Assembly: GCA_963819585.1 (NCBI GenBank)
Contig: CAWFWP010000015.1
Span: 20,886-84,885, forward strand
Length of the DNA: 64,000 nt
Source of the DNA: an uncultured Alphaproteobacteria bacterium
GTDB lineage: Bacteria; Pseudomonadota; Alphaproteobacteria; Rhodobacterales; Rhodobacteraceae
Direction: 5' to 3'
The notes beneath the pieces are model-generated. The model worked only from the letters and a program-made list of their open reading frames with translations. It was not told the DNA's origin and made no database searches. Position numbers and translations under genes: made by a program. Shown one piece after another: positions 19,442 through 63,671 of this stretch (position 1 is the stretch's first letter; every line of letters begins with the position of its first letter).

Positions 19442-19552
19442 GGTTTTATGCCGCGATCAGTGAACCACCATATCCCGTTGCCGGTCTTGCCTTGACCGCC
19501 TGACGCGGCGGCCCACGATCGACCTGCCTGCGCCCGCAGTGATCGCGTCCGG

Positions 19553-19963
19553 CTAGAAGAACCCGCTCAGGAACACCGCCGTCTGATCCGATATCCCGCC
19601 GATCTTGTTCGTCGCCTGACGATAGAATTTGAAATTGAGTTCGGTCTCGGGCCGTCCGTCGGACCAATCGGTGAATTGCCTCAGGATGGCTCGCCCAAGC
19701 GGCCGCTTTGCAACCGCCACTCGCGTGATCGTCAGGTTCACACGCGGTGTCTGCCGGGCGATGCCGGGCCGTCTCGCGACGGCTTCGGCAGACGTGACCA
19801 CGCCGCGCGCGATCAGTCCCTGCCCGCCCTCGGTCTCGCTTGCGAACACGAATATCGTATCGTTCGCAGCGATGTTCTTGCCGCCATACATCGTCTTCTG
19901 CCGTGCAAGCCGGAATTCCATGACCGCCGGATCAGGGACTTCGACCTTTATCACGAAAGCCAT
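19553..19963 (-). CDS. Hypothetical protein (136 aa)
   Basis: This is an intact ORF, MAFVIKVEVPDPAVMEFRLARQKTMYGGKNIAANDTIFVFASETEGGQGLIARGVV..., and I do not recognise its family. Confidence 0.45.
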   Translation of the reverse strand: MAFVIKVEVPDPAVMEFRLARQKTMYGGKNIAANDTIFVFASETEGGQGLIARGVVTSAEAVARRPGIARQTPRVNLTITRVAVAKRPLGRAILRQFTDWSDGRPETELNFKFYRQATNKIGGISDQTAVFLSGFF

Positions 19964-20125
19964 GCTGGTCTTCCTGCGCTGCGGGCCAAGGGCAACGCCG
20001 GATCATCCTACCGCGGGCCATGCACGACAAGACCAATGTTCAGGCAAGGCGGCGGCCAGATCCTGCAACGATGGCACGCTTTCGCCCGAACCGCAGGAAA
20101 GGGGGGGCCGAAGCCTCCGTCCGCC

Positions 20126-20335
20126 TCAAGGCAGCTTCACATCCTCGGATCGTTGCCGCCCCGACCAGCTGACCCGCTCGCCGACGATCAACCCGTCCGC
20201 TCCGGCATTCACATGCACCGCCGCGCCGTCCCTGATGTTCCCCGCCAGCAGCATCCCGGCCAGCGCGTCCTGGATCACCCGTTTCAGCAGCCACGCTCCG
20301 AAGGGTGCGTCCGGCAACCGAGATTGTCGATCCTG
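20126..20335 (-). pseudogene. Diverged fragment of a clpB 3' end (last ~70 codons)
   Basis: …[61 protein letters not shown] compares with the genuine ClpB C-terminus …[65 protein letters not shown] at 21527. DNA identity is about 80% over about 200 bp. Confidence 0.6.
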
Positions 20336-20480: not shown

Positions 20481-20996
20481 TCATGACCGTCCCGCGCCCA
20501 AGGTCACAAGAAGCGCATCCAGTTGCTCGAACTGCTCGGTCAGGCCACCTTCCATACCTTCGATGGAATGGTCGAGAGCTTCTTTCGTCGGATAGAGTTC
20601 GTGGAAGGTCAGCAGCGTCATGCTACCGGTTTCCTCGAAGGTCACCGTGGTCACGGCACCGGCATCGCTTTCGTCATTTGTCCAGACGAGGCGCGAATGC
20701 GGTGTCACCTCGATGTATCTTCCGAAGAATGCCATGGGCTTCTCGAAGGCTGCATGGCCGAACTCGACCCGGTACCCGCCTCCGACACGGACATCCATCT
20801 CGCACGACAGCAGTGACATGCCCGTAGATTTCGGTGCCCACCACCGCTTGAACAGTTCGGGCTTGGTCCACGCCTCGAACGCGATGCGCGCCGTTGCATC
20901 GAAGCTTCGCGTGACGACGAGCTCGCGCTCGGACTTCCGTTCCACCGTCGTCCGATTTTTCATATCGGAGGGCTCACTCTCTCTATTTGCGTCCAT
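20481..20996 (-). CDS. SRPBCC-superfamily protein (AHSA1/activator-of-Hsp90-ATPase-like)
   Basis: …LVVTRSFDATARIAFEAWTKPELFKRWWAP…GGYRVEF… These are commonly paired with ArsR regulators. Confidence 0.75.
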   Translation of the reverse strand: MDANRESEPSDMKNRTTVERKSERELVVTRSFDATARIAFEAWTKPELFKRWWAPKSTGMSLLSCEMDVRVGGGYRVEFGHAAFEKPMAFFGRYIEVTPHSRLVWTNDESDAGAVTTVTFEETGSMTLLTFHELYPTKEALDHSIEGMEGGLTEQFEQLDALLVTLGAGRS

Positions 20997-21312
20997 CGAC
21001 TTTCTCCTTGCGTTTCAATTCCTCGACAACCTTGTCCAGCTCGTCGAAGCGTGCATCCCAGAGCTGGCGGTACCTCTCGATCCATGCCGCCTCTTCCTCC
21101 AGTCGGCGCAGGCCGAGCCTGCAGGTCCGCACGCGCCCGACCTTTTCCGTGGTGACAAGCCCCGCCTGCTCCAGGACACCGACATGCTTCTTCATGCCCG
21201 TGAGGGTCATGCGGAACGTCGAGGCAAGGTCCGAGACCGAAGCGTCTGCACGCCCGAGCTGCTCCAGAACACCGCGTCGGGTGGCATCCGAGAGCGCGGA
21301 GAACGAAGTCAT
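20983..21312 (-). CDS. ArsR/SmtB-family transcriptional regulator
   Basis: MTSFSALSDATRRGVLEQLGRADASVSDLASTFRMTLTGMKKHVGVLEQAGLVTTEKVGRVRTCRL is a winged HTH. Confidence 0.85.
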   Translation of the reverse strand: MTSFSALSDATRRGVLEQLGRADASVSDLASTFRMTLTGMKKHVGVLEQAGLVTTEKVGRVRTCRLGLRRLEEEAAWIERYRQLWDARFDELDKVVEELKRKEKVDGRK

Positions 21313-21350: not shown

Positions 21351-21493
21351 TTTTATAGCTTGGATTTGCGGCATGCAAGTGGGGTCCGAACGCCCGCTGC
21401 GTTACCATCCGGCGGTCAGGTTCTGTCCTCGGTTCCACAAGGCTCGCTGACCGCTCCGACCCGCACGACGGGGCAGCCATCAACCGCTCGCCG

Positions 21494-21519
21494 AACGAAA
21501 AGGGGGCCACAGGCCCCCC
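21494..21519 (-). terminator. clpB terminator (GGGGGCC-aca-GGCCCCC plus TTTTCGTT on the minus strand)
   Basis: GC hairpin and a T-tract immediately downstream of the clpB stop at 21527. Confidence 0.55.
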
Positions 21520-21526
21520 GTCGCTC

Positions 21527-24146
<2,620 letters not shown>

Positions 24147-24222
24147 CGGTCCGTCTCCTTCCAAAAAGCCCCCGGTCCGCCTCGCCCGCCTCTGCGGCAC
24201 GAACACTCCGGGTCTTGACCTT

Positions 24223-25338: not shown

Positions 25339-25756
25339 CTACAACGCCCTGATCCGGTTGTTGCGCGGATTGTGCTCCACTTCCGCCAGCCCCAGCACCT
25401 CAAGCACCGGTGCCACGTAGTTCCCGAACCGACCGCGATACCCTTTCCGCAGCCCGTAATAGCCACCGACCGGGTTGCCTTCGTCGCGCGCCCAGCCCTC
25501 CAGCGACCCGTCCTGCGACGGGTTTGCCCTCATCCGCGTTCCCGATCGCAACCCAGTCACCCCGTGACTTCAGCATCGCCACCGCATCCCCGATTCCACG
25601 CAGCGCATACGACAGCCGCGTCGTGCCCACCTGCACGACCAGCGCAGGCGGGTTCAGGCTCTCGTCCCGCCACGCCTGAAACTCCGACGTCTGCGGCGGT
25701 GTCTTCAGAACCCAGGGGTCCGCCGCCGTCCCGTTTCCATACGTCACCGTGTTCAT
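25339..25756 (-). CDS. Conserved hypothetical protein; frameshift near 25550
   Basis: MNTVTYGNGTAADPWVLKTPPQTSEFQAWRDE...GDWVAIGNADE continues in another frame as ...SLEGWARDEGNPVGGYYGLRKGYRGRFGNYVAPVLEVLGLAEV. Confidence 0.4.
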
Positions 25757-25757
25757 C

Positions 25758-26174
25758 TCATGCTCCCTCCGTCAGACGTTTCAATCCATCAGCAAACTCA
25801 TCGAAGCTTGGCTGCATGTCCGGCATGCTCCGCCAGATCAGCGGCAGCATCAGACCCTTGTAAACCTCCGCCATATGAAATGACGTGCCGTCCCGCCCGG
25901 GGGTCAGCGTGAAAGTCCTCGTCCCGTTGAAAATCAGCGGCGCTCCGCTTGTCCATACCATCCGGCGAGGTGCCTCGGCCTCCGTCACTTTCAGGTTGAA
26001 AACCCGTCCGGGCGCAATCCTGCTTTCCAGCTTGATCGTCTGGCCGGCCGCGATCCGCCCCTGAAGACGTACAACGCCCAGACCGCCCTCCATCAGCCGC
26101 GTCGGGTCGGTCAGAACCGCCCAGACTGCCTCTGCGCTCGCCGCAATCTGTCGGCGCACTTCGATCACCTTCAT
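25758..26174 (-). CDS. SRPBCC-superfamily (polyketide cyclase/dehydrase-like) protein
   Basis: MKVIEVRRQIAASAEAVWAVLTDPTRL..., 138 aa. Confidence 0.65.
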   Translation of the reverse strand: MKVIEVRRQIAASAEAVWAVLTDPTRLMEGGLGVVRLQGRIAAGQTIKLESRIAPGRVFNLKVTEAEAPRRMVWTSGAPLIFNGTRTFTLTPGRDGTSFHMAEVYKGLMLPLIWRSMPDMQPSFDEFADGLKRLTEGA

Positions 26175-29256: not shown

Positions 29257-29343
29257 CGTCTCCTTGAATGGGTTCTGCTTCGGCGTCAGGTCCGCGTGCG
29301 GGGTCGCACGCGGACCTCCGTGCCGCCGTTTCGGCTCACAGGC

Positions 29344-29724
29344 TTACGGCGCGGGTGCCGGCGTCGCGGGTGCCGGGGTCGCCGGGGCGGGCGGATCGGT
29401 CCCATCCGGCGCTGCCGCCGGATCGGCCGTTGTCGCATCCGCTGCCGGGGCGGGCGCGGCGGCCGGGTCCGTCGCCGCCGGTGCCGTGGCCGCAGGTTCC
29501 GCCGCCACGGGAGCCGTCGTGTCAGTCGCCGTGCGGTCAGGCCCCAGAACGGCCCAGCCGACCAGTGCCGCGATCACGATGGCAACGATCACGCCGACCG
29601 TGGTGCCGGTCGACATGCCGCTCGGGCCGGTCTGGTTGACATAGGTGTTGCCGGGCCGTGTCGATGTGCCGTCGGCGCGATAGGCCGGATCGCCCGGAGT
29701 TGGATTGGTGCGCATATCGGTCAT
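29344..29724 (-). CDS. Membrane-anchored protein with a Pro/Ala/Thr-rich low-complexity tail
   Basis: AAAGGA RBS before the ATG at 29724. TM segment VGVIVAIVIAALVGWAVL. The tail is PAPATPAPATPAPAP. Confidence 0.45.
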   Translation of the reverse strand: MTDMRTNPTPGDPAYRADGTSTRPGNTYVNQTGPSGMSTGTTVGVIVAIVIAALVGWAVLGPDRTATDTTAPVAAEPAATAPAATDPAAAPAPAADATTADPAAAPDGTDPPAPATPAPATPAPAP

Positions 29725-32575: not shown

Positions 32576-32796
32576 GGGGGCTCCTTAAGGGGCGCTACGG
32601 TCGGCGCGGAGTATGCCGGGGGGAGGAGGCGGGGGGAAGGGGGGAGGGTGAGGATGGAAGAGGGTATCTCCCGATCCCAGAATGTATTGGGGTCCCAAGG
32701 TACTTGGCGCCACTCTACGGCTGCGAAATTCAACTTGCCGGCTTGTCAAGGATCAGTTAGCTTTGCGCCATTAAGATAGAGCAATTGGTTGCCCTC

Positions 32797-33333
32797 ATGG
32801 TTAGAAGCACACCCCGTTCTAATCGACCCTCAGAAACTCCTGCTGGAAACTCTCTACCATCTCGTCTTTGGCAGGAATTGTCGAATAAAATCATAGTTGC
32901 GATCTGCACATTGGCTGCCGCCGGCATTGGTAGCGCACTTTATCTGAGCTGGGATTCTATAAAAATAAAGCTGGGACAATCGGTCATCAATATCGTTGGC
33001 TCTGAACTTTCAAAAAAGAGCAGCAATATGTCAATCCTAGTTGGAGAAATCGTAGCCTCTGAGCTTTCCAAGAAGGACAGCGGCATCTCAAAATTAGTGG
33101 AAGCACGCGCCAAAGCTGCAATTAACCGAACATTTGGGGCCGTAAGCGCCGGCCAAGCATCAATAAATGCACAGTATAACGACCATATACTTTATGTATA
33201 TTGCCCGCCCTCCCACGAAGGTCAGTTAATTGTGTCGGTTGAGGGCATTGATACTGGTGAGCGGATAATTGTTACAATGGCAGAGCAGCCTCCAATTACC
33301 ATTGATAATAACGTCGACGAATCGCCCGTTTGA
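32797..33333 (+). CDS. Low-GC islet ORF A: single-pass membrane protein with internal SELSKK repeats
   Basis: TM segment IIVAICTLAAAGIGSALYLSW. The repeats are GSELSKKSSNMS and ASELSKKDSGIS. Codon usage is AT-rich, unlike the host. Confidence 0.45.
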   Translation: MVRSTPRSNRPSETPAGNSLPSRLWQELSNKIIVAICTLAAAGIGSALYLSWDSIKIKLGQSVINIVGSELSKKSSNMSILVGEIVASELSKKDSGISKLVEARAKAAINRTFGAVSAGQASINAQYNDHILYVYCPPSHEGQLIVSVEGIDTGERIIVTMAEQPPITIDNNVDESPV

Positions 33334-33412
33334 AATAGTGACCCCGTCATTAATGAAGCGAGACTCAAGTGGCGCAGGCCCGCAAACCATTATGACGGTA
33401 AACGAGGGTATT

Positions 33413-33568
33413 ATGAAGTATGCCTATCCAGTCAAATTTACATTGGCCGCAGATCCGGTAGCTGATGGGTCAATAGATGACTATCGGTCACCCGACGAAT
33501 TGACCTCACGAGTTTCGGTTAAATACCTTCTCCTTATTTCTCCTCCAATAGAGAAGAGCAATGGCTAA
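33413..33568 (+). CDS. Low-GC islet small ORF B (51 aa; alternative start at 33353)
   Basis: GAGGG SD 4-5 nt before the ATG at 33413: MKYAYPVKFTLAADPVADGSIDDYRSPDEL…. Confidence 0.2.
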   Translation: MKYAYPVKFTLAADPVADGSIDDYRSPDELTSRVSVKYLLLISPPIEKSNG

Positions 33569-34364
33569 AGCACTACAGATGCTCGGCAAACTTTTTTCAG
33601 TCCTATTTGTGGCCCTTATTGTCGGCGCGCTCGTATCCAGTTCTGTATCCGCAAACAGTTTGTTCGAGAGGGAGATCGAAATAAATGGCAGGAAAGGCCA
33701 CCTTATATACGTTAATCCAACTAGTTCAATAGTAAGAGTTATCTCGCCAAGATCGACTGCCTATGTCAAGTCTGATCAGACTCCCTCAATTCGAGATGGT
33801 TTGTTTTTGCTCGACTTAGTTAAGCGGCATAGACCTTTGGCAATTCTATCTGGCGGATACCTTAGTTCTTTCTCGCCCCCGAGAGCACTGGGCTTACTTA
33901 AGGTGGCAGGAAAGAGAATTTCGGGCGGGCACCGGAGTTGGCTGACAACCGGTATGTTCTGCACGTCAGGCGACCGCTACAAAATTCTGCCTGCAACTGG
34001 GTTAGAAGTCGCTGAACTATTTCCAGATTGTGTTCAGGCGGGGCCGTATCTGGTTAGGGACGGAGTTAATCGTTATAAGTCCCTTGACATGGTTGGTTCT
34101 GGGGAGAGAGAGGTTGCGCTTGCTCAGCAGAGTCAAGTTTTTTTATGTATTACTCGCAACGACAATTTAATTCTGGGGTTTGTAGATGGGGGGAATTCTG
34201 TTGGAGTTGCATCCTTTGCTCATGCGGACTTGGGTTGCGTCGATGCACTAAGACTAAGTGGAGGTATAACAGCAGGACTGTGGAGTGTTGATGTGGGGTT
34301 TTTGGGAAATAACGAAGTTCAACTCACGGATGCGATAGCAATATTTGCACGTGACGTCCCATAG
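33561..34364 (+). CDS. Low-GC islet ORF C: secreted phosphodiester glycosidase-like (DUF2233/NAGPA-like) protein
   Basis: Signal peptide MAKALQMLGKLFSVLFVALIVGALVSSSVSANS. Motifs …VQAGPYLVRDG… and …ALRLSGGITAGLW… resemble DUF2233 (…sGPlLv.dG…, …NLDGGGS…). The family assignment is made from memory. Confidence 0.5.
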   Translation: MAKALQMLGKLFSVLFVALIVGALVSSSVSANSLFEREIEINGRKGHLIYVNPTSSIVRVISPRSTAYVKSDQTPSIRDGLFLLDLVKRHRPLAILSGGYLSSFSPPRALGLLKVAGKRISGGHRSWLTTGMFCTSGDRYKILPATGLEVAELFPDCVQAGPYLVRDGVNRYKSLDMVGSGEREVALAQQSQVFLCITRNDNLILGFVDGGNSVGVASFAHADLGCVDALRLSGGITAGLWSVDVGFLGNNEVQLTDAIAIFARDVP

Positions 34365-34597
34365 ATCGGCCTCTCTGCCTATCAATGCACCGTGCTCACC
34401 TTAGCTCTGTCGCTCTGCAAACCCCCTCAAACCCCCGTAATCTCCTTCCGCGCCGAACTCCCCAGAAACGCCGACCGGCTCATCCGCCGCCCCTTCGCCG
34501 TCTCGTCGATGGCCCGTGAGCTACCCCCGGTCCAGCGAAATATTCGCCCGCAACTGCGCCCCCTCGGGGCCGATGTATGGCACAGTCAGCCGCATCG

Positions 34598-34632
34598 CCC
34601 CCTTCACTCATCCTTGTTCCGACTGTCGAGCA
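34598..34632. repeat. Imperfect direct repeat copy 1 (CTCACTCATCCTTGTTCCGaCTGTCGAGC) of the 3' end of the gene at 35028..35534
   Basis: 29 of 31 bases match 35022..35056. The reverse complement encodes …RLLDSRNKDE*, compared with …YQLDRRNKDE* at the gene end. Confidence 0.6.
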
Positions 34633-35001: not shown

Positions 35002-35021
35002 CGGGCGGGAAAAGGCCAATG

Positions 35022-35056
35022 CCCCCCTCACTCATCCTTGTTCCGCCTGTCGAGCT
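35022..35056. repeat. Direct repeat copy 2 (native 3' end of the brnA-like gene)
   Basis: See copy 1. Confidence 0.6.
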
Positions 35057-37964: not shown

Positions 37965-38040
<76 letters not shown>

Positions 38041-50525: not shown

Positions 50526-51548
50526 ATGGGCTATCGTGTCGTTGTCGCAGGGGCCACCGGGAACGTGGGCCGCGAAATGCTGAACATCCTCGCCGAACGG
50601 GAATTCCCGGTCGATGAGATCGCAGCGCTTGCATCGCGCAAGTCGCTGGGGACCGAGATCAGCTTCGGAGACAAGACACTCAAGACCAGAGACCTAGACA
50701 CCTTCGACTTCACCGGCTGGGACATCGCGCTCTTCGCCGTCGGCTCTGATGCGACGAAGGTCTATGCGCCCAAGGCCGCTGCGGCGGGCTGCATCGTCAT
50801 CGATAACTCGTCGCTCTACCGCTATGACCCCGACGTGCCGCTGATCGTCCCTGAGGTGAACGCCGACGCGATCATGGGCTATGCCAAGAAGAACATCATC
50901 GCCAACCCCAACTGCTCGACCGCCCAGATGGTCGTCGCGCTGAAGCCCCTGCATGACCGCGCCCGGATCAAGCGTGTCGTCGTCAGCACCTATCAGTCGG
51001 TGTCGGGTGCCGGGAAGGAAGGCATCGACGAGCTCTGGGACCAGACCAAGGCGATCTACAACCCGACCGCGCATGTGCCGCCGAAGAAATTCCCCCGGCA
51101 GATCGCGTTCAACGTGATCCCGCAGATCGACGTCTTCCTTGATGACGGCTTCACCAAGGAAGAATGGAAGATGGTCGCCGAGACCAAGAAGATCCTCGAC
51201 AAGAAGATCAAGGTCACGGCCACCTGCGTCCGCGTCCCGGTCTTTGTCGGCCATTCGGAATCGGTGAACATCGAGTTCGAGGAGTTCCTCGACTGGGAAG
51301 AAGCGACCGACATCCTGCGCGAGGCGCCGGGCATCATGGTCGTCGATAAGCGCGAACCCGGCGGCTACATCACCCCCATCGAATGCGTCGGCGACTACGC
51401 CACCTTCGTCAGCCGCATCCGCCAGGACAGCACCATCGACAACGGCCTGTCGATGTGGATCGTGTCCGACAACCTGCGCAAGGGGGCCGCGCTCAACGCG
51501 GTGCAGATCGCGGAAGTGCTGGGAAACCGGGTGCTGAAGAAGGGGTGA
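50526..51548 (+). CDS. asd: Aspartate-semialdehyde dehydrogenase
   Basis: MGYRVVVAGATGNVGREMLNILAEREFPVDEIAALASRKS…NCSTAQMVVALKPL…, 340 aa. Confidence 0.9.
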   Translation: MGYRVVVAGATGNVGREMLNILAEREFPVDEIAALASRKSLGTEISFGDKTLKTRDLDTFDFTGWDIALFAVGSDATKVYAPKAAAAGCIVIDNSSLYRYDPDVPLIVPEVNADAIMGYAKKNIIANPNCSTAQMVVALKPLHDRARIKRVVVSTYQSVSGAGKEGIDELWDQTKAIYNPTAHVPPKKFPRQIAFNVIPQIDVFLDDGFTKEEWKMVAETKKILDKKIKVTATCVRVPVFVGHSESVNIEFEEFLDWEEATDILREAPGIMVVDKREPGGYITPIECVGDYATFVSRIRQDSTIDNGLSMWIVSDNLRKGAALNAVQIAEVLGNRVLKKG

Positions 51549-51618
51549 GGCGAGCACGTCGTTCTCTCAATTTCAACTGGCCGGAGAGAAAGCAGCCGTC
51601 TGCAGCGTCGGATAGGGC

Positions 51619-52113
51619 TTACTCCAGTGGCAGAATGCTGAGCTCCTTTGACGACTCGACCAAAATCGCCTCGCCCTTCGGAGTATTGACCAGGATCCAA
51701 GGCACTATTCGCAGGTAGCGCCTTGGAAAGCGGAGCTCTCTCGGCAATTCAGAACGGATTGCCGTCATCCTAGACTGCTCGTCTACAATAATGAATAAGG
51801 CGGCCAGCGGTGGGGAGGCATCGCAGGCTTGGTCAGCGCGCCTCACGACAACCGCGTCGCACAGTTTGCCGGCGCCGGAATGCTTCCCATCCCGGCACTG
51901 ACCCAAAAAACGATAGACATCATGATAGTCTAGACGGAGGACCTCGATCACAGCATCGTCTGGCACACTCATCTCGCATGCCTTTGCCAAAGCACTCTTT
52001 TCTTCGTCGGTGGCCTTGCCCCTTTGGACAGTCGGAAAAGTAGACAAAGCAGCCTCAGCAGTGGCGATCAGAATAGCGGTCGCCAAGAGCAAGCGTTGCA
52101 ACTCAGCTTTCAT
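51619..52113 (-). CDS. Secreted hypothetical protein carried in a lower-GC insert next to asd
   Basis: Signal peptide MKAELQRLLLATAILIATAEAA and four Cys residues. No family recognised. Confidence 0.4.
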   Translation of the reverse strand: MKAELQRLLLATAILIATAEAALSTFPTVQRGKATDEEKSALAKACEMSVPDDAVIEVLRLDYHDVYRFLGQCRDGKHSGAGKLCDAVVVRRADQACDASPPLAALFIIVDEQSRMTAIRSELPRELRFPRRYLRIVPWILVNTPKGEAILVESSKELSILPLE

Positions 52114-52239
52114 GCTTCACCTTTTTCTTGCGTCGCCACTACCCAACTTCTGAGCCGGTCGAGACAGTAGGGTTTTGCAAACTTAAGGCAGCGGTGAGCG
52201 GAATGCCAAGTAACCGTGTAGAATGCTTCTTCGAGAGTG

Positions 52240-52388
52240 TAATCTACGTGTCGCGCATCCTGCCGCACAGCACCATCGAGAACGGACTGGGCATGTGGAT
52301 CATCTCCGACAACCTGCCGAAGTGCGTGGCGCTGAACGCCGTCCAGATCGCGGAAGTGCTGGGCAATCGGGTGTTGAAGAAGGGGTGA
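52240..52388 (+). pseudogene. Diverged duplicate of the asd 3' end (last ~48 codons)
   Basis: …YVSRILPHSTIENGLGMWIISDNLPKCVALNAVQIAEVLGNRVLKKG* compares with the asd C-terminus …FVSRIRQDSTIDNGLSMWIVSDNLRKGAALNAVQIAEVLGNRVLKKG*. DNA identity is about 85%, and the last about 35 bp are identical. Confidence 0.6.
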
Positions 52389-52414
52389 GGCGAGCGGGGC
52401 GTGTGCGGTCCCAA

Positions 52415-52436
52415 GGGCACCTTCGGGTGCCCTTTT
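52415..52436 (+). terminator. Rho-independent terminator (GGGCACC-ttcg-GGTGCCC-TTTT) after the asd 3' duplicate; convergent with the aminotransferase gene
   Basis: 7-bp GC stem with a GNRA-like loop and T4. Confidence 0.5.
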
Positions 52437-53566
52437 CATTGCCGCGACCGGTAACCGGCCAGCCACGCCCCAACCCGCGCCAGCCCCTCCCGCAGCGCAT
52501 CCGTCGCGCAGGCGTAGCCGATGCGCACATGCCCCTCGATCCCGAAGACATCGCCCGGCACGAACATCACGCCCGTATCCGCCAGCACCTTCGTGCAGAA
52601 CTCCCGCGACGGCATGTCGAGTCCATAGGCCAGCATCGCCGTCGTGCCCGCCTGCGGCTTCACATAGGACATCCCCGGCGTCGCCGCGACCCAGCCGTCG
52701 AGGATCGCCAGATTGGTCCGCACGATCCCCCGGCTGCGCGCCAGCACCTTGCCCGCGTTCTCCAGCGCCAGCCCCGCGAAATGGTCGTCGATCATGCCCA
52801 CACTGATCGTCGTGTAGTCCCGGTGAATGCTGACGGCCTCGATCACCTCGCGCGGGGCCGCGATCCAGCCGAGGCGCAGACCGGCCAGTGAGAACGCCTT
52901 CGACATGCCCGCCGTTCCGATCCCCCTCTCATACAGGTCCGCAAAGGACGGCGTGATCTCCGCCCCCTCTTGTTCCGTCCCGCGATAGACCTCGTCCGCC
53001 AGCAGCCAAGCGCCCGCATCCCGCGCGATGGCGACGATCTCGTCCATCATCGCCTTCGGCATCAGCGATCCGGTCGGGTTGTTCGGGTTGGTCAGCGTCA
53101 AGAGCCGTGTTCCCGGCGTGACCAGCCGCCGGAGGGCCGCAAGGTCCGGCAGATACCCGTCCCCGGCCCGCAGGCGCAGCTCCACGACATCAGCGCCCAA
53201 TGACGCCGGGATCGATGTATGCTGCTGATAGGTCGGAACGACGGACACAACCCGGTCCCCTGCCGACACCATCGCCCGGTGCACCAAATCGTTCGCCCCG
53301 ATGGTCCCATGCGTGACGATGATGTTCTCGCGCGCCTGCCGCGCATACAGTCCGGTGATCGCGTCACGAAGCCGGTCCGACCCCTCGATGGCCCCATAGG
53401 TCATCCGCATCGGCAGCAGCTCGGCCAGATCGCGGTCGTTCCGCCCCGTCAGCGTCAGCAATTCGCCGATTGTCAGAGAATGCACGCAGGTCTCGGCAAG
53501 GTTAAACGCGCAGGTCGTCTCATAGGCGTTCATCCAGATTTCGACGCCGAAGGGTTGGATTTTCAT
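52436..53566 (-). CDS. PLP-dependent aminotransferase (class I/II)
   Basis: MKIQPFGVEIWMNAYETTCAFNLAETCVHS… with the PLP-Lys region …GTAGMSKAFSLAGLRLGW…. Confidence 0.8.
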   Translation of the reverse strand: MKIQPFGVEIWMNAYETTCAFNLAETCVHSLTIGELLTLTGRNDRDLAELLPMRMTYGAIEGSDRLRDAITGLYARQARENIIVTHGTIGANDLVHRAMVSAGDRVVSVVPTYQQHTSIPASLGADVVELRLRAGDGYLPDLAALRRLVTPGTRLLTLTNPNNPTGSLMPKAMMDEIVAIARDAGAWLLADEVYRGTEQEGAEITPSFADLYERGIGTAGMSKAFSLAGLRLGWIAAPREVIEAVSIHRDYTTISVGMIDDHFAGLALENAGKVLARSRGIVRTNLAILDGWVAATPGMSYVKPQAGTTAMLAYGLDMPSREFCTKVLADTGVMFVPGDVFGIEGHVRIGYACATDALREGLARVGAWLAGYRSRQ

Positions 53567-53633
53567 GGGGCTCTCCAAGGCTTCGGGCGACCCTATGCGG
53601 GCCGCCCGGTCGGGCAAAGGGGGTGCGGCCGGT

Positions 53634-54341
53634 CTATTTCCGGATCAGCCCGATCCCCGACGCGATCATCCAGACCGACAGCAGCAGGTAACCCGCCACC
53701 GCCAAAAGGCCGAACGCCCCGCCATCCGCGCCGATGGCCAGCGCCACGCCCTCATACGCCCCGACCGTGATCGCGGCAGTTGCCAGGGCGCCGAGCCCTG
53801 CTGTCACCTTGCGCCCTTCGCGCAGCTGCAGGATCGCCGACGCGCCCACGAACATCGCCGTGAAGAGCTGCCCCAGATGCTCGCCTATGGCGACGCCGCC
53901 ATAGGCATGGATCACCGCAAAGGCCTGCGCGGCTTCCGGATCAGCCGTCATGCCCGGCACCACCATCACCCAGCGCAGCAGACCCATCGCCTGCGTCAGC
54001 CCCGCCAGCGCGCCGAACACGGCGGCCGAAACCGCCAGCCCCGGCAGACGCCCCATGCGCCCGGCGGCGAAGGAATGCGCCAGCGCGACCGGCACGAACA
54101 GCAGCGCGGCGAGGGCGAATGCGTACCAGGTCAGGATCAGGTCGGTGCCGCCAGCGGCAAAGGCCGACAGTATCTCCCCGGCGGGGCGGCGCAGGATGTC
54201 GGGATACTCGAAAATGGCGGCGAGCCGTGCGAAAGGCAGGTTGAAGCCGACGGCCAGCGTGATCATCGCGGCCCCAGTCAGGATGCGGGGATTGCGGTCG
54301 GCGGAGGGCGCGGCGATGGACGAGAGGGTGAGCGTGGTCAT
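53634..54341 (-). CDS. DUF4386 family membrane protein
   Basis: Multi-TM hydrophobic protein, divergent from a TetR gene. The DUF call is tentative. Confidence 0.5.
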   Translation of the reverse strand: MTTLTLSSIAAPSADRNPRILTGAAMITLAVGFNLPFARLAAIFEYPDILRRPAGEILSAFAAGGTDLILTWYAFALAALLFVPVALAHSFAAGRMGRLPGLAVSAAVFGALAGLTQAMGLLRWVMVVPGMTADPEAAQAFAVIHAYGGVAIGEHLGQLFTAMFVGASAILQLREGRKVTAGLGALATAAITVGAYEGVALAIGADGGAFGLLAVAGYLLLSVWMIASGIGLIRK

Positions 54342-54365
54342 GGCGACTTCCTTTGCGGTTGAGCG

Positions 54366-54432
54366 TGTCACTGATCGGTGACATACGGATCGCAGATGAT
54401 TCGCACAAGAAAAATGTCACCGACCGGTGACA
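54366..54432. promoter_or_regulatory. Two TGTCAC-N6-GTGACA palindromes (54366-83, 54415-32) in the TetR/DUF4386 divergent promoter region
   Basis: Candidate TetR operators. Confidence 0.35.
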
Positions 54433-54446
54433 AATCCGGAGACAGC

Positions 54447-55052
54447 ATGACCGAAGCCCCACGCAACCGCGACGACACCCGCCAACGTATCCTTGATGCG
54501 GCGCTCGACATCCTCGCGCAGGAAGGCTTCGGGGCGTTCGGCGTCAACGCCGTCGCGCGCCGGTCGGGGTCGGATAAGAAGCTGATCTACCGCTATTTCG
54601 ACGGGATGGAGGGGCTGACCGAAGCGATGGGCGAGGCTGTCGCCGACGAGTTGACAGCCGCCCTTGCCGCGCATGTCACACCGATGCCCGACAACTATGC
54701 CGCGCTGATTGAACGCTTGGCACTCGCGCTTTTCGACCATCTCTGCGGCAATGCCCGCTACCGGCAGATCAAGGTGGTCGAGATCACCGCCCCCTCCGCC
54801 GCCACCGCAGCCTTCGCAAAGGCGCGCGGCCGCGCGATCCAGGGCTGGGTCATGGCGGCACGCGGCAGCCTTGTCCCACCTGGGGGGCTCGACGCCCCCG
54901 CCCTGAACGCCGCCCTGATCGCCGCGGTCGAGGGGATGACGGTGCTGGGCGCGGCGGGCCTGCCGCTGGACAGTGACACAAACCGCGACCGCGCCCGCAC
55001 CGCGCTGCGGCGGCTGGTGAGGGCGGCATACGCAGCGGCGGACGCGACCTAG
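54447..55052 (+). CDS. TetR-family transcriptional regulator
   Basis: RQRILDAALDILAQEGFGAFGVNAVARRSG is a TetR HTH. Confidence 0.8.
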   Translation: MTEAPRNRDDTRQRILDAALDILAQEGFGAFGVNAVARRSGSDKKLIYRYFDGMEGLTEAMGEAVADELTAALAAHVTPMPDNYAALIERLALALFDHLCGNARYRQIKVVEITAPSAATAAFAKARGRAIQGWVMAARGSLVPPGGLDAPALNAALIAAVEGMTVLGAAGLPLDSDTNRDRARTALRRLVRAAYAAADAT

Positions 55053-55193
55053 AACCGCTCGGCCCGCAGCACTTCGCAATCGGTCACGCTGACCACGCCG
55101 ATATGCCGCTCCAGCACCCGGAACGCCGCCTCTAAAAGCGTGTCCACCCGTTCGGGCGGCAGGATGCAGACCACCGCCCGTGCCGTCAGCCGG

Positions 55194-55637
55194 TCAGGCG
55201 ACCCGCATCAGCCTGGCGGGCCGCTGGCCCATGCGGGGACGTGGCGGATCGACAGCGATCGCGGTCCCGGCAAAACCCGGAAACGGTGCGCCGAAGCGCA
55301 GCGCCAACGCCGCCGGGTCGATCCCCGCCGCTTCGGCCCGGATCAGCGGTCGGTCACGCGGCCAGCCGTGCAGCATGACCGACCCGCCGCCCGCCCGCAG
55401 CATGAACCCGAGCCCGCGCAGGCGCGACTGCAGGTCCGTCCAGCCGGTCGCGCTGCGCACCGCGTCCCGCACTCCGATATCACGCGGTATGCGCGGAATT
55501 GCCCGCGCGGCCAGCGCCCGCACCAGCGCACCGCGCAGGATGTCGGCGGGCGAACACCCCTCTGCCCGCGCGGCCTCGGTCAGCGACGCCAGCAGGTCGT
55601 CGGGAAGGCGCATGGTCACAAGATGATCCCTGGGCAT
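55194..55637 (-). CDS. Ribbon-helix-helix (CopG-like) domain protein
   Basis: MPRDHLVTMRLPDDLLASLTEAARAEGCSPADILRGALVRALA has an RHH signature at the N-terminus. Confidence 0.4.
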   Translation of the reverse strand: MPRDHLVTMRLPDDLLASLTEAARAEGCSPADILRGALVRALAARAIPRIPRDIGVRDAVRSATGWTDLQSRLRGLGFMLRAGGGSVMLHGWPRDRPLIRAEAAGIDPAALALRFGAPFPGFAGTAIAVDPPRPRMGQRPARLMRVA

Positions 55638-55701
55638 CGCCAAGGCTTGCGCGATTCTGGTTAAGGGAAGGTTTGCGCCCGCCGGACCCCGCGTCCGCGC
55701 C

Positions 55702-60538: not shown

Positions 60539-63500
60539 ATGAGCCGGATTCAGATCAATGCCTATCTTGCCGAACTTGACCGCACCAAGAAATTTTCCGG
60601 GTCCCTGACCGAAGAGGTCATCCGCGAGGCGTTCAAGGGTCTGCTGAAGGGCTGGGCGCGCGACAGGAACCTGTTCCTGCAGGTCGAATACGTCATGCAG
60701 GGACCCGCGAAGAACACCATCAAGCTGGATGGCGCGATCCTGCACGAGCTGCGCGTGCCGCTGGGCTACTGGGAGGCGAAGGACACTGGCGACGATCTGG
60801 ACCGCGAGATCGAGAAGAAGTTCCGCAAGGGCTATCCGCAGGACAACATCGTGTTCGAGAATTCGCATACCGCAGTGCTGTTCCAGAACCGGCGTCGAGG
60901 TGATGCGCTGCGGCATGACCGATCTGGACGCGCTGGAGAAACTCCTGCGCCTTTTCTTCGCCTATGAACGCCCCGAAATCGCCGATTTCCGCGAAAGCCG
61001 TCGCGCAGTTCTCGGTCGATCTGCCCGCCATCCTTGACGGGCTGCGCGCCAGGATCGAGTGACGCCTACCGCGACAACCCGGCCTTTGCGGTCAGGCGGC
61101 GGCTTTCCTGGCCCATGCCAAGGAAACCATCAACCCCGCCCTGACCGAGGCGGACGTGCGCGAGATGCTGATCCAGCACGTCCTGACCGAAGAGATATTC
61201 ACGCAGGTCTTCAACGACGGCCAGTATCACCGGGAAAACAACATCGCCCAGCGAACTGACCAAGCTGGAGGATGCGTTCTTCACCGGCGGGATAAAGCGC
61301 GACGCCCTGCGGGCGCTGCAGCCCTATTACGCGGCGATCAGGGCCAACGCCGCGCAGATCACCGCGCACCGGAAAAGCAGACGTTCCTGAAGGTCGATCT
61401 ACGAGACAGTTCTACAAGGTCTACAACCCCAAGGCCGCCGACCGGCTGGGCGTCGTCTATACCCCGAACGAGATCGTGCGCTTCATGATCGAGGGCGCGG
61501 ACTGGCTGTGCGAGAAGCACTTCGGCAAGACCCTGATCGAGCCGGGGGTGGAAATCCTCGACCCCGCCACCGGCACCGGGACCTTCATCTGCGAGCTGAT
61601 CGAGCATTTCCGCGGCCAGCCGCAGACGCTGCACCGCAAGTACAAGGAAGAGCTTCACGCCAACGAGGTGGCGATCCTGCCGTATTACGTCGCCAACCTG
61701 AACATCGAGGCAACCTATGCGGCGGTGGCGGGGCAGTACGCCGAGTTTCCGAACCTGTGCTTCGTGGACACGCTGGACAATGTGGCGGGGCTGGGCATCA
61801 AGTCCGGCTATCAGCACGACCTGTTCGGCGGGCTGTCGGACGAGAACATCAAGCGCGTCCGCGACCAGAACAAGCGCAAGATTTCCGTCGTCATCGGCAA
61901 CCCGCCCTACAACGCGAACCAGCAGAACGAGAACGACAACAACAAGAACCGCGCCTATCCGAAGATCGACGACCTGATAAAGCGGTCCTTCGTGAAACTG
62001 TCCACCGCGCAGAAGACCAAAGTCTATGACATGTATGCCCGGTTCTTCCGCTGGGCGTTCGACCGGGTGCATGACGACGGGATCATCGCATTCATCACCA
62101 ACCGCAGCTTCATCGACAGCCGCACCTTCGACGGCTTCCGGCGCTATGTGCGGAGAAGTTCGCCGAGATCTTGGATCGTCGATCTGGGCGGCGACGTGCG
62201 GGCCAACCCGAAGATTTCGGGGACCAAGAACAACGTCTTCGGCATCCAGACCGGGGTGGCGATTTCATTTCTGGTGAAACGCAAGGGGGCGAAGCAGTGC
62301 GTGATCCGTTACGTGCGGCGGCCTGAATTCGACACGGCTGAGGACAAGCTGGCGTGGCTGGGGTCATCACGCCTGTCGTCGATGGCGACGGACCGCGTGG
62401 TGCCGGACAAGTCCGCGAACTGGATCAACCTGAGCGACAACGACTGGGACAGCCTGATCCCTGTGGCGGACAAGAAGACCAAGGCCGCCAAGGTGAAGGG
62501 GCAGGAGCAGGCGGTGTTCAAGTTGTTTAGCTTCGGCCTCGTCACCAATCGCGATGAGTGGATTTATGGACGAGACGGAGAGCAAGTCTGGAAAAGGCCG
62601 AATTTCTAGTTGAGCACTATGAGAAGCAACGTGCCAATCTCCATGCCATAGCGCGCGATGACAGAGGCGTCGACTCACCACGGGGTGCAGATCAAATGGA
62701 CCCGTTCCGTAAAGAGAAGTTTGGAGGCGAACCGCGTTTCGATCTTAAAGCGGCAAGAATGGTGCCTTGCCTATATCGGCCCTTCGACAAGCAAGAGCTG
62801 GCATTCTACCCGCCTCTGATTGAGATGCTGAATCAGACGCGAGCCATTTTCGGCGATGATTGCGGCGCGACGAACATGGTCATCATGTTCACTGATCCGA
62901 CATCGCAAAAGCCCTACATGACCATGGCAACCAATGTGGCAGTTGATATGCACGCGGTAGGTGCCGCTTCGGGGGCGTCGTGTCTCCCCCGCTACCGCTA
63001 CACCCAGTCCGGCGAGCAGATCGACAACATCACTGACTGGGCGCTCAAGACCTTCACTGACCATTACGGCAAGGCGGCGGGCGTCACCCGCGATGCGATC
63101 TTTGCCTATGTCTATGCGGCGCTGCACGACCCCCTCTGGCGCGAAACCTATGCGATCAACCTGAAGCGCGAGTTCCCCCGCATTCCCCTGCACCCGCATT
63201 TCGGCCGCTGGGCCGGCGTGGGGACAGCGGCTGCTGGACCTGCATATCGGGTATGAGGGGGTGGAGCCGTGGCCGGTGACCCGCCGCGACGTGCCGGACG
63301 CCAAGAGCCGCGCGGCGGGGGTCAGCCCCCGCGTGATCCTGAAGTCGGACCGGGAGGCGGGGACGGTGACGCTTGATTCCGAGACGGTGATCTCGGGGAT
63401 ACCGGCGGTGGCGTGGGACTATCGCCTCGGCAACCGGACCGCCATCGACTGGGTGCTGGACCAGCACAAGGAAAAGTCGCCGAAGGACCCGACGATCCGC

Positions 63501-63671
63501 GCGAAGTTCAACACCTACCGCTTTGCCGACCACAAGGAGCGCGTGGCAGACCTGATCGGGCGGGTGGCGCGGGTGAGCGTGGAGACGATGGGGATCGTGG
63601 AGGAGATCCAGAGCGGCGGGGCGGTGAACTCCGAGGCCCCGGCCTTCGCCGGGGCGGTTGTCAGCCCGTAG
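60539..63671 (+). pseudogene. MmeI-like type IIL/IIG restriction-modification fusion enzyme (N-terminal PD-EXK-type nuclease, gamma-class N6-adenine MTase, C-terminal target-recognition region); at least 8 frameshifts
   Basis: The N-terminus …LDGAILHELRVPLGYWEAKDTGDDLD has D…EAK. MTase motif I is VEILDPATGTGTF and motif IV is VVIGNPPYNANQQ. The conserved C-terminus is …YRLGNRTAIDWVLDQHKEKSPKDPTIRAKFNTYRFADHKE… Seven listed ORFs in three frames tile the gene. Confidence 0.65.

What the first reader, a model, noticed from the sequence alone, without database searches (positions are those of the whole stretch)
51400..52440. The same signature at asd: lower-GC cargo with a secreted-protein gene, then a diverged copy of the asd 3' end
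asd ends at 51548. An insert of about 0.7 kb with visibly lower GC then follows, carrying one signal-peptide ORF. After it, about 150 bp reproduces the asd C-terminal 48 codons at about 85% identity, ending in the identical tail GAAGAAGGGGTGAGGCGAGC followed by a good terminator. Together with the clpB and brnA-like cases, this window holds three independent cargos lodged at gene 3' ends with duplicated targets. That suggests an active or recently active family of 3'-end-targeting integrative islets.
Basis: seen in the sequence. Interest (0 to 1): 0.7.

Follow-up and report, generated by a model that had tools for sequence, protein, structure and literature searches.

The report
Dead asd tail flanking small insert
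Just after the essential gene asd, this bacterium carries one extra small gene followed by a decayed, non-functional second copy of the asd end; this is an old scar left when related foreign DNA was added by recombination inside the gene's tail, and nothing shows that it is a working mobile element.

Summary
The 658 nt between the copies has lower GC (0.55 vs 0.66) and carries one 164-aa signal-peptide gene on the opposite strand. The second copy abuts a strong hairpin shared with a convergent aminotransferase gene.

The distal copy is a dead fragment, with 12 replacements at residues invariant in 71 relatives. None of 80 related species has it. The closest syntenic relative (L086) has asd and the aminotransferase 108 nt apart. 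A 98%-identical strain shares the structure.

The event is old. The copy branches about where L086 splits. No recombinase, terminal inverted repeats or motif shared with the clpB islet was found. The cargo's only homolog sits directly behind the orthologous aminotransferase in another organism, so the added DNA looks like ordinary chromosome from a relative.

Best reading: additive recombination in the asd tail stacked two versions of the asd/aminotransferase junction.

The clpB site has a third, more decayed tail copy, so repeated events at gene ends are real here. An active family of islets with shared cores is not supported.

The parts
50526..51548 (+). asd, aspartate-semialdehyde dehydrogenase, intact, 340 aa
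   Evidence: Both Pfam domains are present. NCBIfam NF011456 scores 519 bits against a cutoff of 223. Identity to relatives is 84-92% aa.
51381..51562 (+). Proximal repeat copy c1: the last 56 codons of asd plus 14 nt after the stop
   Evidence: Its identity to L086 (88%) equals the gene average (89%), so no foreign origin is detectable.
51563..51618 (.). Spacer between the asd stop region and the stop of the convergent cargo gene; no convincing terminator
   Evidence: Its fold is no better than shuffled sequence (z -0.3 and +1.7) and there is no terminator-like site.
51619..52113 (-). Cargo gene: a 164-aa predicted secreted protein with 4 conserved Cys, from a very rare family
   Evidence: It has an ORF and a ribosome-binding site. 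It has no Pfam, PHROG or NCBIfam match. The only homolog among 1.84 billion representatives is P0121: 164 aa, 56% identity, E 6e-54. GC3 is 0.62, against 0.85-0.87 for neighbouring genes.
52114..52220 (-). Region upstream of the cargo gene. The last ~40 nt weakly resemble the aminotransferase 3' end/cargo start overlap (ATGA) seen in L090. The novel joint with the asd fragment lies at its right end.
   Evidence: DNA local alignment to L090 gives z = 4.4, but the protein-level comparison is not significant. This is suggestive only.
52221..52402 (+). Distal repeat copy c2: a non-functional, decaying asd 3' fragment
   Evidence: It has 12 replacements at residues invariant in 71 relatives. It carries 27 private changes spread 8/9/10 over codon positions. 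Between two 98%-identical strains it shows 4 differences in 175 nt.
52413..52434 (.). Hairpin of 9 bp with a UUCG loop. It is followed by a T run in the asd direction and abuts the aminotransferase stop. It is probably the terminator of the asd/aminotransferase junction.
   Evidence: In relatives a comparable hairpin sits 20-60 nt after the asd stop.
52436..53566 (-). Class I/II aminotransferase (PRK07324 family), convergent with asd and co-oriented with the cargo gene
   Evidence: Its orthologs are 87% identical in L086, 91-92% in L088 and L089, and 75% in L090.
21491..21693 (-). Context: the true clpB 3' end plus its terminator, the proximal copy of the clpB array
20091..20294 (-). Context: clpB tail copy 2 plus a terminator-like hairpin. 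It lies distal to the ArsR (20983-21312) and AHSA1/SRPBCC (20481-20996) genes.
   Evidence: It has 36 private changes spread 15/11/10 over codon positions.
19457..19543 (-). Context: clpB tail copy 3, more decayed and in register including the TGA. It lies distal to ORF136 (19553-19963).
   Evidence: It matches the true tail at 54/87 and copy 2 at 52/87. The background maximum is 45/87, with mean 25 and sd 4.5.

Best explanation
The locus is a fossil of one additive recombination event, not a working device.

DNA from a related Paracoccaceae bacterium carried an asd 3' end. It recombined with the resident chromosome inside the last ~180 nt of asd. The other end was joined illegitimately, or the fragment entered as a circle through a single crossover. 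Nothing was replaced, so two alternative versions of the asd/aminotransferase junction now lie in tandem:
- (i) asd tail, 56-nt spacer, cargo gene.
- (ii) truncated asd tail, hairpin terminator, aminotransferase.

One full-length asd survives because the recombining segment included the stop codon. The other tail copy (c2) lost its function at once and has been decaying since.

Which version was resident and which was incoming cannot be decided from the data. No dedicated recombinase is needed.

Shown:
- the repeat and its borders;
- the non-functionality and age of c2;
- the absence of c2 from relatives;
- an empty arrangement in L086;
- linkage of the cargo family with the aminotransferase in L090;
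- the absence of recombinase genes and of a shared core.

Inferred:
- the recombination route, either one-sided homology (homology-facilitated illegitimate recombination, also called 3'-end displacement) or Campbell-type integration of a circle;
- that the added DNA was chromosomal.
For: - Repeat geometry: sharp borders at 51381/52221 and 51562/52402. The left border is a novel joint and the right border is where the two intergenic versions diverge.
- c2 is non-functional and decaying.
- c2 shares the rare M-W-I residues of the window/L086 subclade (present in 7-8 of 71 relatives). It is equidistant from c1 and L086 (130/168 each), with 9 private changes each for c1 and L086. It therefore comes from a close relative or an old split.
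- c2 bears marks of time spent in a working asd gene. One is a three-base Ser codon switch (AGC to TCG). Another is six purely synonymous differences in the last 20 codons, against 10 nonsynonymous and 3 synonymous codons in codons 9-36 (Fisher p = 0.003).
- L086 has asd and the aminotransferase convergent, 108 nt apart.
- In L090 the cargo homolog overlaps the stop of the orthologous aminotransferase (ATGA) on ordinary chromosome, next to a priA-like gene. In the window the cargo is likewise downstream of and co-oriented with the aminotransferase.
- No recombinase, terminal inverted repeats or phage families were found. No motif is shared with the clpB islet.
- clpB shows stacked tail copies with increasing decay, as expected from repeated displacement at a conserved gene bordering a variable spot.
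- The same logic is published for Rhs and T6SS arrays: C-terminal displacement, with homology-facilitated illegitimate recombination proposed (PMC5361080).
Against: - RecA-type recombination across ~180 nt at 80-90% identity is inefficient. The longest identical runs are only 20-21 nt.
- The gradient of identity along the repeat is not predicted by a single simple event. It needs a mosaic or a later conversion.
- The aminotransferase remnant expected upstream of the cargo gene is only weakly detectable.
- L086 is not a close relative (89% nt in asd). The two closest aminotransferase orthologs, L088 and L089, are not next to asd at all. The ancestral state is therefore not firmly known.
- Two sites in 64 kb against none in about 1 Mb of relatives hints at a lineage-specific agent that was not identified.
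Confidence: 0.5

Rival explanations
1. Decayed site-specific integrative element (a CIME-like remnant). A tyrosine- or serine-integrase island that used the asd 3' end as attB carried its own asd tail in attP. It integrated and later lost its integrase and most of its genes by deletion. What remains is attL (c1), one cargo gene and attR (c2).
For: - Integrative elements typically target the 3' end of a conserved gene, preserve it, and leave a displaced fragment at the far end. Tandem arrays arise by repeated integration (PMC7192596; PMC5704250).
- The clpB site has three stacked copies.
- The cargo has lower GC.
- The part of the repeat from about codon 37 to the stop differs only synonymously, while the upstream part is decayed. 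This is what an attP would show if it must supply a working gene end downstream of the crossover.
Against: - No integrase was found in or near the islet or in the 20 ORFs scanned around the sites.
- The insert is only 658 nt.
- No core is shared between the asd and clpB repeats.
- The only cargo homolog is chromosomal, in an operon-like overlap with the aminotransferase.
- No viral or prophage contig carries an asd relative.
- No paper in the searched library reports asd as an attB.
Confidence: 0.25
2. Purely local event. A segment of the resident chromosome (asd tail, with or without the terminator) was duplicated in situ next to a native aminotransferase-cargo operon, by illegitimate recombination or by tandem duplication followed by deletion. 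It then decayed, and no foreign DNA was involved.
For: - The cargo gene is linked to the aminotransferase in L090, so it may be native.
- c2 belongs to the same subclade as c1.
- The private changes of c2 are spread evenly over codon positions.
- For clpB, copy 2 clearly derives from the window lineage: 6 private changes in the proximal copy against 32 in L094.
Against: - c2 is no closer to c1 than to L086 (9 against 9 private changes). A duplication younger than half the split time is disfavoured.
- The Ser AGC-to-TCG switch and the all-synonymous last 20 codons are unlikely under neutral decay alone.
- The terminator follows only c2. A tandem-duplication route therefore needs an extra precise deletion.
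- The cargo's GC3 (0.62) is far below that of native genes.
Confidence: 0.15
3. The distal copy is functional, for example as the 86-aa ORF 52128-52388 that ends in the Asd C-terminal helix, or as a regulatory or antisense element for the aminotransferase-cargo transcript.
For: - The frame and the stop codon are retained without indels over 56 codons.
- The last 20 residues are identical to Asd despite six nucleotide differences.
- The clpB copy also sits in an 86-aa ORF.
Against: - There are 12 replacements at invariant residues.
- The sister strain L091 has nonsynonymous changes in c2, including one in the last 20 codons. c2 accumulates differences faster than the cargo gene.
- There is no family hit and no Rfam hit.
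Confidence: 0.04
4. Assembly artefact: strain haplotypes collapsed into a false duplication.
For: clpB in the same window carries a frameshift, so the assembly may contain errors.
Against: - Two independent metagenome assemblies (L091, L092) reproduce the order aminotransferase end, hairpin, c2, cargo start at 98% identity.
- The 23% divergence between the copies is far beyond strain variation.
Confidence: 0.01

Closest known systems
Integrative genetic elements that rebuild the 3' end of their target gene (tRNA-gene islands; e14 and phage 21 in E. coli icd with the displaced icd fragment, from my own knowledge; general principle in Mageeney et al. 2020, PMC7192596)
   Same: The intact target gene is followed by inserted DNA and then a partial copy of the gene's 3' end. 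Gene function is preserved. Tandem arrays are possible.
   Different: There is no integrase. The insert is 0.66 kb, whereas the TIGER/Islander resolution software of Mageeney et al. applies size limits of 2-200 kb to elements. The copies are 23% diverged, with no defined common core. asd is not a reported target.
CIME (cis-mobilizable elements) and tandem accretion at gene 3' ends, e.g. ICESt1/ICESt3 relatives at fda in Streptococcus thermophilus (Guedon et al. 2017, PMC5704250)
   Same: Like a CIME, the islet lacks an integrase and is bounded by att-like repeats that include the end of a housekeeping gene. Successive units can stack up.
   Different: No cognate ICE or IME or integrase is known or found. 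There is no evidence that the repeats are recombination-competent. The cargo has a chromosomal rather than an ICE-borne homolog.
C-terminal displacement arrays of Rhs, CDI and T6SS effector loci, with homology-facilitated illegitimate recombination proposed (Kirchberger et al. 2017, PMC5361080; Jackson et al. 2009, cited there)
   Same: Incoming DNA is anchored in the conserved part of a gene. A new 3' end plus downstream gene(s) is added, and the old 3' end is shifted downstream. Repeated events give strings of orphaned 3' ends, and no integrase is involved.
   Different: Here the genes are housekeeping enzymes whose C-termini are conserved, not polymorphic toxins with immunity genes. There is no obvious selective reason to keep the displaced pieces.
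Partial duplications of the 3'-conserved segment in complex class 1 integrons, explained by homologous integration of ISCR1-derived circles (from my own knowledge)
   Same: Campbell-type integration of a small circle produces a direct partial duplication that brackets the captured genes.
   Different: There is no ISCR or rolling-circle transposase here, and the repeats are strongly diverged.

Membership tests
Integrative genetic element (integrase island) | Encodes its own tyrosine or serine integrase | tested here: not met
   The insert's only ORF (164 aa) has no Pfam, PHROG or NCBIfam hit. The 20 ORFs scanned around both sites contain no recombinase.
Integrative genetic element (integrase island) | Flanked by direct repeats made of the target gene's 3' end, with the target gene left intact | tested here: met
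   Repeat 51381-51562 and 52221-52402. asd is full length and scores as an equivalog.
Integrative genetic element (integrase island) | An uninterrupted site exists in related genomes | tested here: met
   In L086 asd and the aminotransferase are 108 nt apart. None of 80 relatives has a second tail. Caveat: L086 is only 89% identical in asd.
Integrative genetic element (integrase island) | Evidence of excision or circularisation, or of the same element in other genomes | tested here: not met
   Cargo DNA is absent from plasmids. The metagenome scan gave only chance hits. No asd relative occurs in viral contigs. The single homolog is chromosomal, in a different context. Excision itself is not testable here.
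CIME (cis-mobilizable element) | Retains attL and attR recognised by an integrase of a related ICE or IME | not testable with these tools
   Repeats are present, but no cognate integrase or ICE is known. No core is shared with the clpB repeats.
CIME (cis-mobilizable element) | Derived by deletion from an ICE or IME (residual element genes) | tested here: not met
   No element-type gene is present. The cargo homolog lies in an aminotransferase operon.
C-terminal displacement / HFIR arrays | An intact gene is followed by one or more orphaned, truncated copies of its own 3' end, separated by newly added genes | tested here: met
   asd has one orphan copy. clpB has two orphan copies with increasing decay, 65/87 and 54/87 identical to the true tail.
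C-terminal displacement / HFIR arrays | Variable toxin C-terminus with a cognate immunity gene | tested here: not met
   The Asd C-terminus is conserved in 71 relatives. The cargo has no toxin or immunity annotation.
Diversity-generating retroelement (TR/VR pair at a gene's 3' end) | Mismatches confined to adenines of the template repeat, with a reverse transcriptase nearby | tested here: not met
   Of 38 differences, 17 are C/G swaps, 11 are C>T or G>T, and few involve A. No RT-like ORF is present.
Transposon or MITE with target-site duplication | Terminal inverted repeats and a short, identical target duplication | tested here: not met
   There are no terminal inverted repeats at the insert ends. 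The repeat is 182 nt long and 23% diverged.

The most novel reading that the evidence does not exclude
This Paracoccaceae lineage may have, or may have had, a recombinase-independent route that adds small gene cassettes at the ends of conserved genes. One candidate route is short homeologous fragments, delivered by a gene transfer agent or by transformation, that are integrated through one-sided homology. Such a route would leave stacked and progressively decayed gene-tail copies across the genome. On this reading the asd and clpB sites (three events in 64 kb, none in about 1 Mb of related loci) are the visible part of a genome-wide process.
Probability: 0.2. Interest if true: 0.65.

Novelty: new variant of a known kind. 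Interest (0 to 1): 0.4.

Why it matters
Displaced gene-tail fragments are the standard landmark used to map integrative elements, and tools that rely on them also require an integrase and a minimum size. This locus has the same landmark on sub-kilobase, integrase-less insertions behind housekeeping genes. The added DNA looks like ordinary chromosome from a relative.

If the pattern holds genome-wide, it would document a little-noticed additive route of gene gain in Rhodobacterales, a group known for gene transfer agents. Each event would also carry its own clock, because the decay of the orphan tail dates it.

For annotation, the practical points are these:
- 52221-52402 should be marked as an asd pseudogene fragment.
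- asd now lacks a terminator of its own, so its transcripts probably run antisense through the cargo gene.

Tried and rejected
- Exact look-ups of the window's Asd, cargo and aminotransferase proteins found nothing on record.
- The word-indexed protein search found no cargo homolog. Only the exhaustive HMMER scan did.
- blastn of the insert against plasmids gave no match.
- The one metagenome scan, with the 20-nt tail, returned five chance hits, none of them asd.
- tblastx and blastn of the insert against all fetched loci gave nothing.
- The DGR reading was rejected on the mutation spectrum.
- The transposon or MITE reading was rejected: there are no terminal inverted repeats.
- A search for a shared core between the asd, clpB and brnA sites gave chance-level words only.
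- The AlphaFold model of the cargo protein was too poor to use (pLDDT 46), so no fold search was run.
- The aminotransferase remnant upstream of the cargo gene has DNA z = 4.4 against L090 only and is not significant at protein level. It is kept as a hint only.
- No asd relative was found in viral contigs.
- The best clpB-bearing viral contigs have a conserved convergent gene after clpB, so they are not evidence for clpB as an attB.
- Literature searches found no report of asd as an integration site.
Full report
**1. What is there**

asd runs from 50526 to 51548 and encodes a 340-aa protein. It has both semialdehyde-dehydrogenase Pfam domains. It matches NCBIfam equivalog NF011456 at 519 bits against a cutoff of 223.

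Its last 56 codons plus 14 nt after the stop (51381-51562, called c1 here) recur without gaps at 52221-52402 (c2). The spacing is 840 nt and 141 of 182 positions are identical.

- Both borders are sharp. In 20-nt blocks, identity jumps from 6/20 to 12/20 at 51381 and falls from 17/20 to 3/20 after 51560.
- Identity climbs along the repeat, from about 60% at the 5' side to 90% in the last 60 coding nt.
- The longest identical runs are 20 nt (51504-51523) and 21 nt (51535-51555).
- In a gapless diagonal scan of the whole window the pair scores 68/80. Only the clpB pair scores higher (70/80), and unrelated DNA stays at or below about 48/80.

The 658 nt between the copies has GC 0.549, against 0.658 for the window. 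It holds one ORF on the minus strand (51619-52113, 164 aa). The ORF has a hydrophobic N-terminus and an AAGGTGA ribosome-binding site.

After c2 comes a 9-bp hairpin with a UUCG loop (52413-52434) and a T run in the asd direction. It sits directly against the stop of a convergent class I/II aminotransferase gene, 52436-53566 on the minus strand. The 56-nt spacer after c1 has no convincing terminator.

**2. The distal copy is a dead fragment**

- Compared with 71 related asd genes, c2 has 12 replacements at invariant residues, including R to P and G to C in the DNLRKGAA motif.
- In a three-way comparison over 168 nt with the nearest relative L086, c2 has 27 private changes spread 8/9/10 over the three codon positions. 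That is the pattern of unconstrained DNA. c1 and L086 have 9 private changes each, mostly at third positions.
- The changes in c2 are biased from GC to AT. Its GC has dropped to 0.58, against 0.64 for c1.
- Two independent metagenome contigs (L091, L092) match the window at 98% from the aminotransferase end through the hairpin and c2 into the cargo gene. This shows that the arrangement is not an assembly artefact and that a second strain shares it.
- Between these strains c2 differs at 4 of 175 positions, including two amino-acid changes. The first 149 nt of the cargo gene differ at one synonymous site.
- In that strain an IS3-family element interrupts the cargo gene at the position equivalent to window 51965.

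**3. Distribution**

- Among 80 species-level relatives fetched with Asd (84-92% aa; Cypionkella, Tabrizicola, Rhodobacter, Gemmobacter and others), none has a second asd tail within 6 kb.
- In most of these relatives a hairpin terminator follows the asd stop within 20-60 nt.
- The relative closest in asd is L086 (GCA_965184265.1; asd 89% nt, aminotransferase 87% aa). It has the same upstream genes, and asd and the aminotransferase are convergent, 108 nt apart. It has no cargo gene and no c2.
- This adjacency is seen only in L086 and the window.
- The two closest aminotransferase orthologs (L088 and L089, 91-92% aa) have other neighbours.
- Both genes therefore border a variable spot, and L086 shows a possible empty state rather than a proven ancestral one.

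**4. The cargo**

The word-indexed search of 5.8 billion proteins found no homolog. The exhaustive HMMER scan of 1.84 billion representatives found only two hits.

- P0121: 164 aa, 56% identical, E 6e-54.
- A 53-aa product from the IS-interrupted gene of the sister strain, identical over its first 50 residues.

The two full-length proteins have the same length and share all four cysteines, so the gene is real and conserved, though extremely rare.

In its only other context (L090, a 1.7-kb metagenome contig), the homolog lies immediately downstream of the orthologous aminotransferase (75% aa). Its ATG overlaps that gene's stop (ATGA). A convergent priA-like gene follows, and no asd is present.

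In the window the cargo gene is also downstream of and co-oriented with the aminotransferase. The two are separated by 322 nt that consist of the hairpin, c2 in antisense, and 107 nt.

The last ~40 nt before the cargo ATG resemble the L090 aminotransferase end, including the ATGA overlap (DNA z = 4.4). The protein-level comparison is not significant, so I treat this as a hint only.

The cargo's GC3 is 0.62, against 0.85-0.87 for its neighbours. It has no Pfam, PHROG or NCBIfam match, and its AlphaFold model is unusable.

**5. Origin and age of c2**

- c2 shares the rare M-W-I residues of the window/L086 subclade (present in 7-8 of 71 relatives), so it comes from a close relative or from the lineage itself.
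- It is equidistant from c1 and L086 (130/168 each). The 9:9 split of private changes places its origin about at the split of these lineages.
- An in-situ duplication younger than half that time would predict about 13.5:4.5. By my own estimate a 9:9 split would then arise with probability of roughly 0.02-0.03 (counts).
- Two features suggest that at least part of c2 spent time inside a working asd gene of another lineage. The first is a three-base switch between serine codon families (AGC to TCG at codon 11).
- The second is that all six differences in the last 20 codons are synonymous, while codons 9-36 show 10 nonsynonymous and 3 synonymous codon differences (Fisher p = 0.003).
- c1 shows no sign of being foreign. 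Its identity to L086 is 88%, against 89% for the whole gene, although the adjacent 255 nt are 94% identical (p = 0.03).
- The event is old in any reading. Its divergence is roughly ten times that between the two strains that share it.

**6. Mobile-element features were sought and not found**

- No recombinase or transposase was found in the insert or in the 20 ORFs scanned around the asd and clpB sites.
- The insert ends have no terminal inverted repeats.
- There are no phage protein families.
- The only tRNA in the window is at 37965-38036.
- There is no plasmid match and no asd relative on viral contigs.
- The asd islet, the clpB islet and the brnA region share no motif beyond chance-level words.
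- The differences between the repeat copies are not adenine-specific, which excludes a DGR template/variable pair.

**7. The other sites**

Downstream of clpB (minus strand, stop at 21527) lie ArsR- and AHSA1/SRPBCC-family genes. After them comes a 203-nt copy of the clpB tail with its terminator (20091-20294, 77% identical).

I also found a third, more decayed copy at 19457-19543, just after a further small gene (ORF136).

- It matches the true tail at 54/87 and copy 2 at 52/87, in register and including the TGA.
- The background has mean 25, sd 4.5 and maximum 45 over both strands.
- With the relative L094, copy 2 has 36 private changes (15/11/10 by codon position), against 6 for the true tail and 32 for L094.
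- In L093 and L094 clpB is followed directly by a terminator and by other genes.

So clpB carries an array of orphan tails with increasing decay. This shows repeated additive events at one gene end.

The same diagonal scan over 1.01 Mb of related loci found only paralog pairs and tandem repeats, and no gene-end duplicate. Two sites in 64 kb is therefore unusual.

The brnA-like case differs in kind. It is a 35-nt repeat (33/35 identical) around 389 nt of GC-rich, hairpin-rich non-coding DNA, and the low-GC block lies outside the repeat.

**8. Interpretation**

The geometry is what one homologous exchange within the asd tail produces when the other end of the incoming DNA is joined non-homologously, or when the DNA enters as a circle. 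One complete asd remains, the added DNA follows, and then comes a truncated asd tail joined to the rest of the chromosome.

The locus can be read as two versions of the asd/aminotransferase junction in tandem, one with the cargo gene and one with the terminator. By symmetry, either the cargo side or the c2/terminator/aminotransferase side may be the incoming part.

This matches the published idea of C-terminal displacement through homology-facilitated illegitimate recombination for Rhs and T6SS arrays (PMC5361080). It also matches Campbell-type capture.

The main rival is a decayed integrase element (CIME-like; PMC5704250; PMC7192596). It explains the array and the synonymous-only 3' portion well. 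It has no recombinase, no core and no element-type cargo to support it.

I put about 0.5 on recombinase-independent additive recombination, 0.25 on a decayed site-specific element and 0.15 on a purely local duplication.

**9. Verdict**

The interpretation as insertion with target duplication at gene 3' ends is supported. The claim of an active or recent family with shared recombination cores is not.

It is a new variant of a known kind of scar. It is of moderate interest, mainly because of its density in this window and because no integrase is present.

Noticed in passing
window 19457-19543 (minus strand): A third, strongly decayed copy of the clpB 3' tail lies distal to ORF136 (19553-19963). 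It matches the true tail at 54/87, in register including the TGA. With it, clpB carries an array of orphan tails with increasing decay.
   Followed up: yes
window about 22930-22950 (minus strand): clpB is split into two reading frames. The N-terminal part lies in the frame of 22581-24206 and the C-terminal part in 21527-22936. This is either a frameshift pseudogene or a sequencing error.
   Followed up: partly
L091 and L092, position equivalent to window 51965: In a 98%-identical strain from two ENA metagenomes, an IS3-family element (transposase C-terminus ...HRPHSALGN...) interrupts the 164-aa cargo gene. The gene is therefore dispensable there.
   Followed up: partly
window 34597-34631 and 35021-35055: A 35-nt direct repeat (33/35 identical) covers the last 8 codons, the stop and 7 nt of a BrnA-antitoxin-like gene. 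It brackets 389 nt of GC-rich, hairpin-rich non-coding DNA. A 26-nt piece of this insert recurs at 63632-63657.
   Followed up: partly
window about 32650-34400: A block with GC of only 45-48% holds two genes for predicted secreted or membrane proteins. One is a 182-aa ORF without family; the other is a 267-aa protein with a NAGPA phosphodiester-glycosidase domain. It is clearly foreign in composition.
   Followed up: no
window 53567-55050 and 55177-55695: Relative to L086, the window has about 1.5 kb extra (DUF4386 membrane protein and a TetR regulator) next to the aminotransferase, and a replaced segment further on. The neighbourhood is a hot spot for indels.
   Followed up: partly
window 39-576: Several overlapping diagonals (offsets 81, 108/109, 136, 163, 190, 217...) indicate a tandem repeat with a period of about 27 nt at the start of the window.
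   Followed up: no
window 29335-29557: Short-period internal repeats (offsets 63, 72, 126) lie in the 29335-29557 region.
   Followed up: no
window 61476-63256: A Type ISP/Eco57I-like restriction-modification protein appears split into two ORFs, a methylase part and a Type_ISP_C specificity part. GC is lower (0.55-0.61) in this region.
   Followed up: no
window 25400-26174 (minus strand): A second SRPBCC/AHSA1-like gene (25758-26174) lies next to a DUF6855 gene, about 2 kb beyond the start of clpB. It belongs to the same superfamily as the clpB-islet cargo.
   Followed up: no
L009 7559-7678 and 7917-8036: In a related Gemmobacter MAG, the start region of a small ORF is duplicated 358 nt apart, about 0.5 kb downstream of asd. 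The core of the duplication, about 40 nt including the ATG, is identical. This is a possible 5'-end counterpart of the phenomenon.
   Followed up: no
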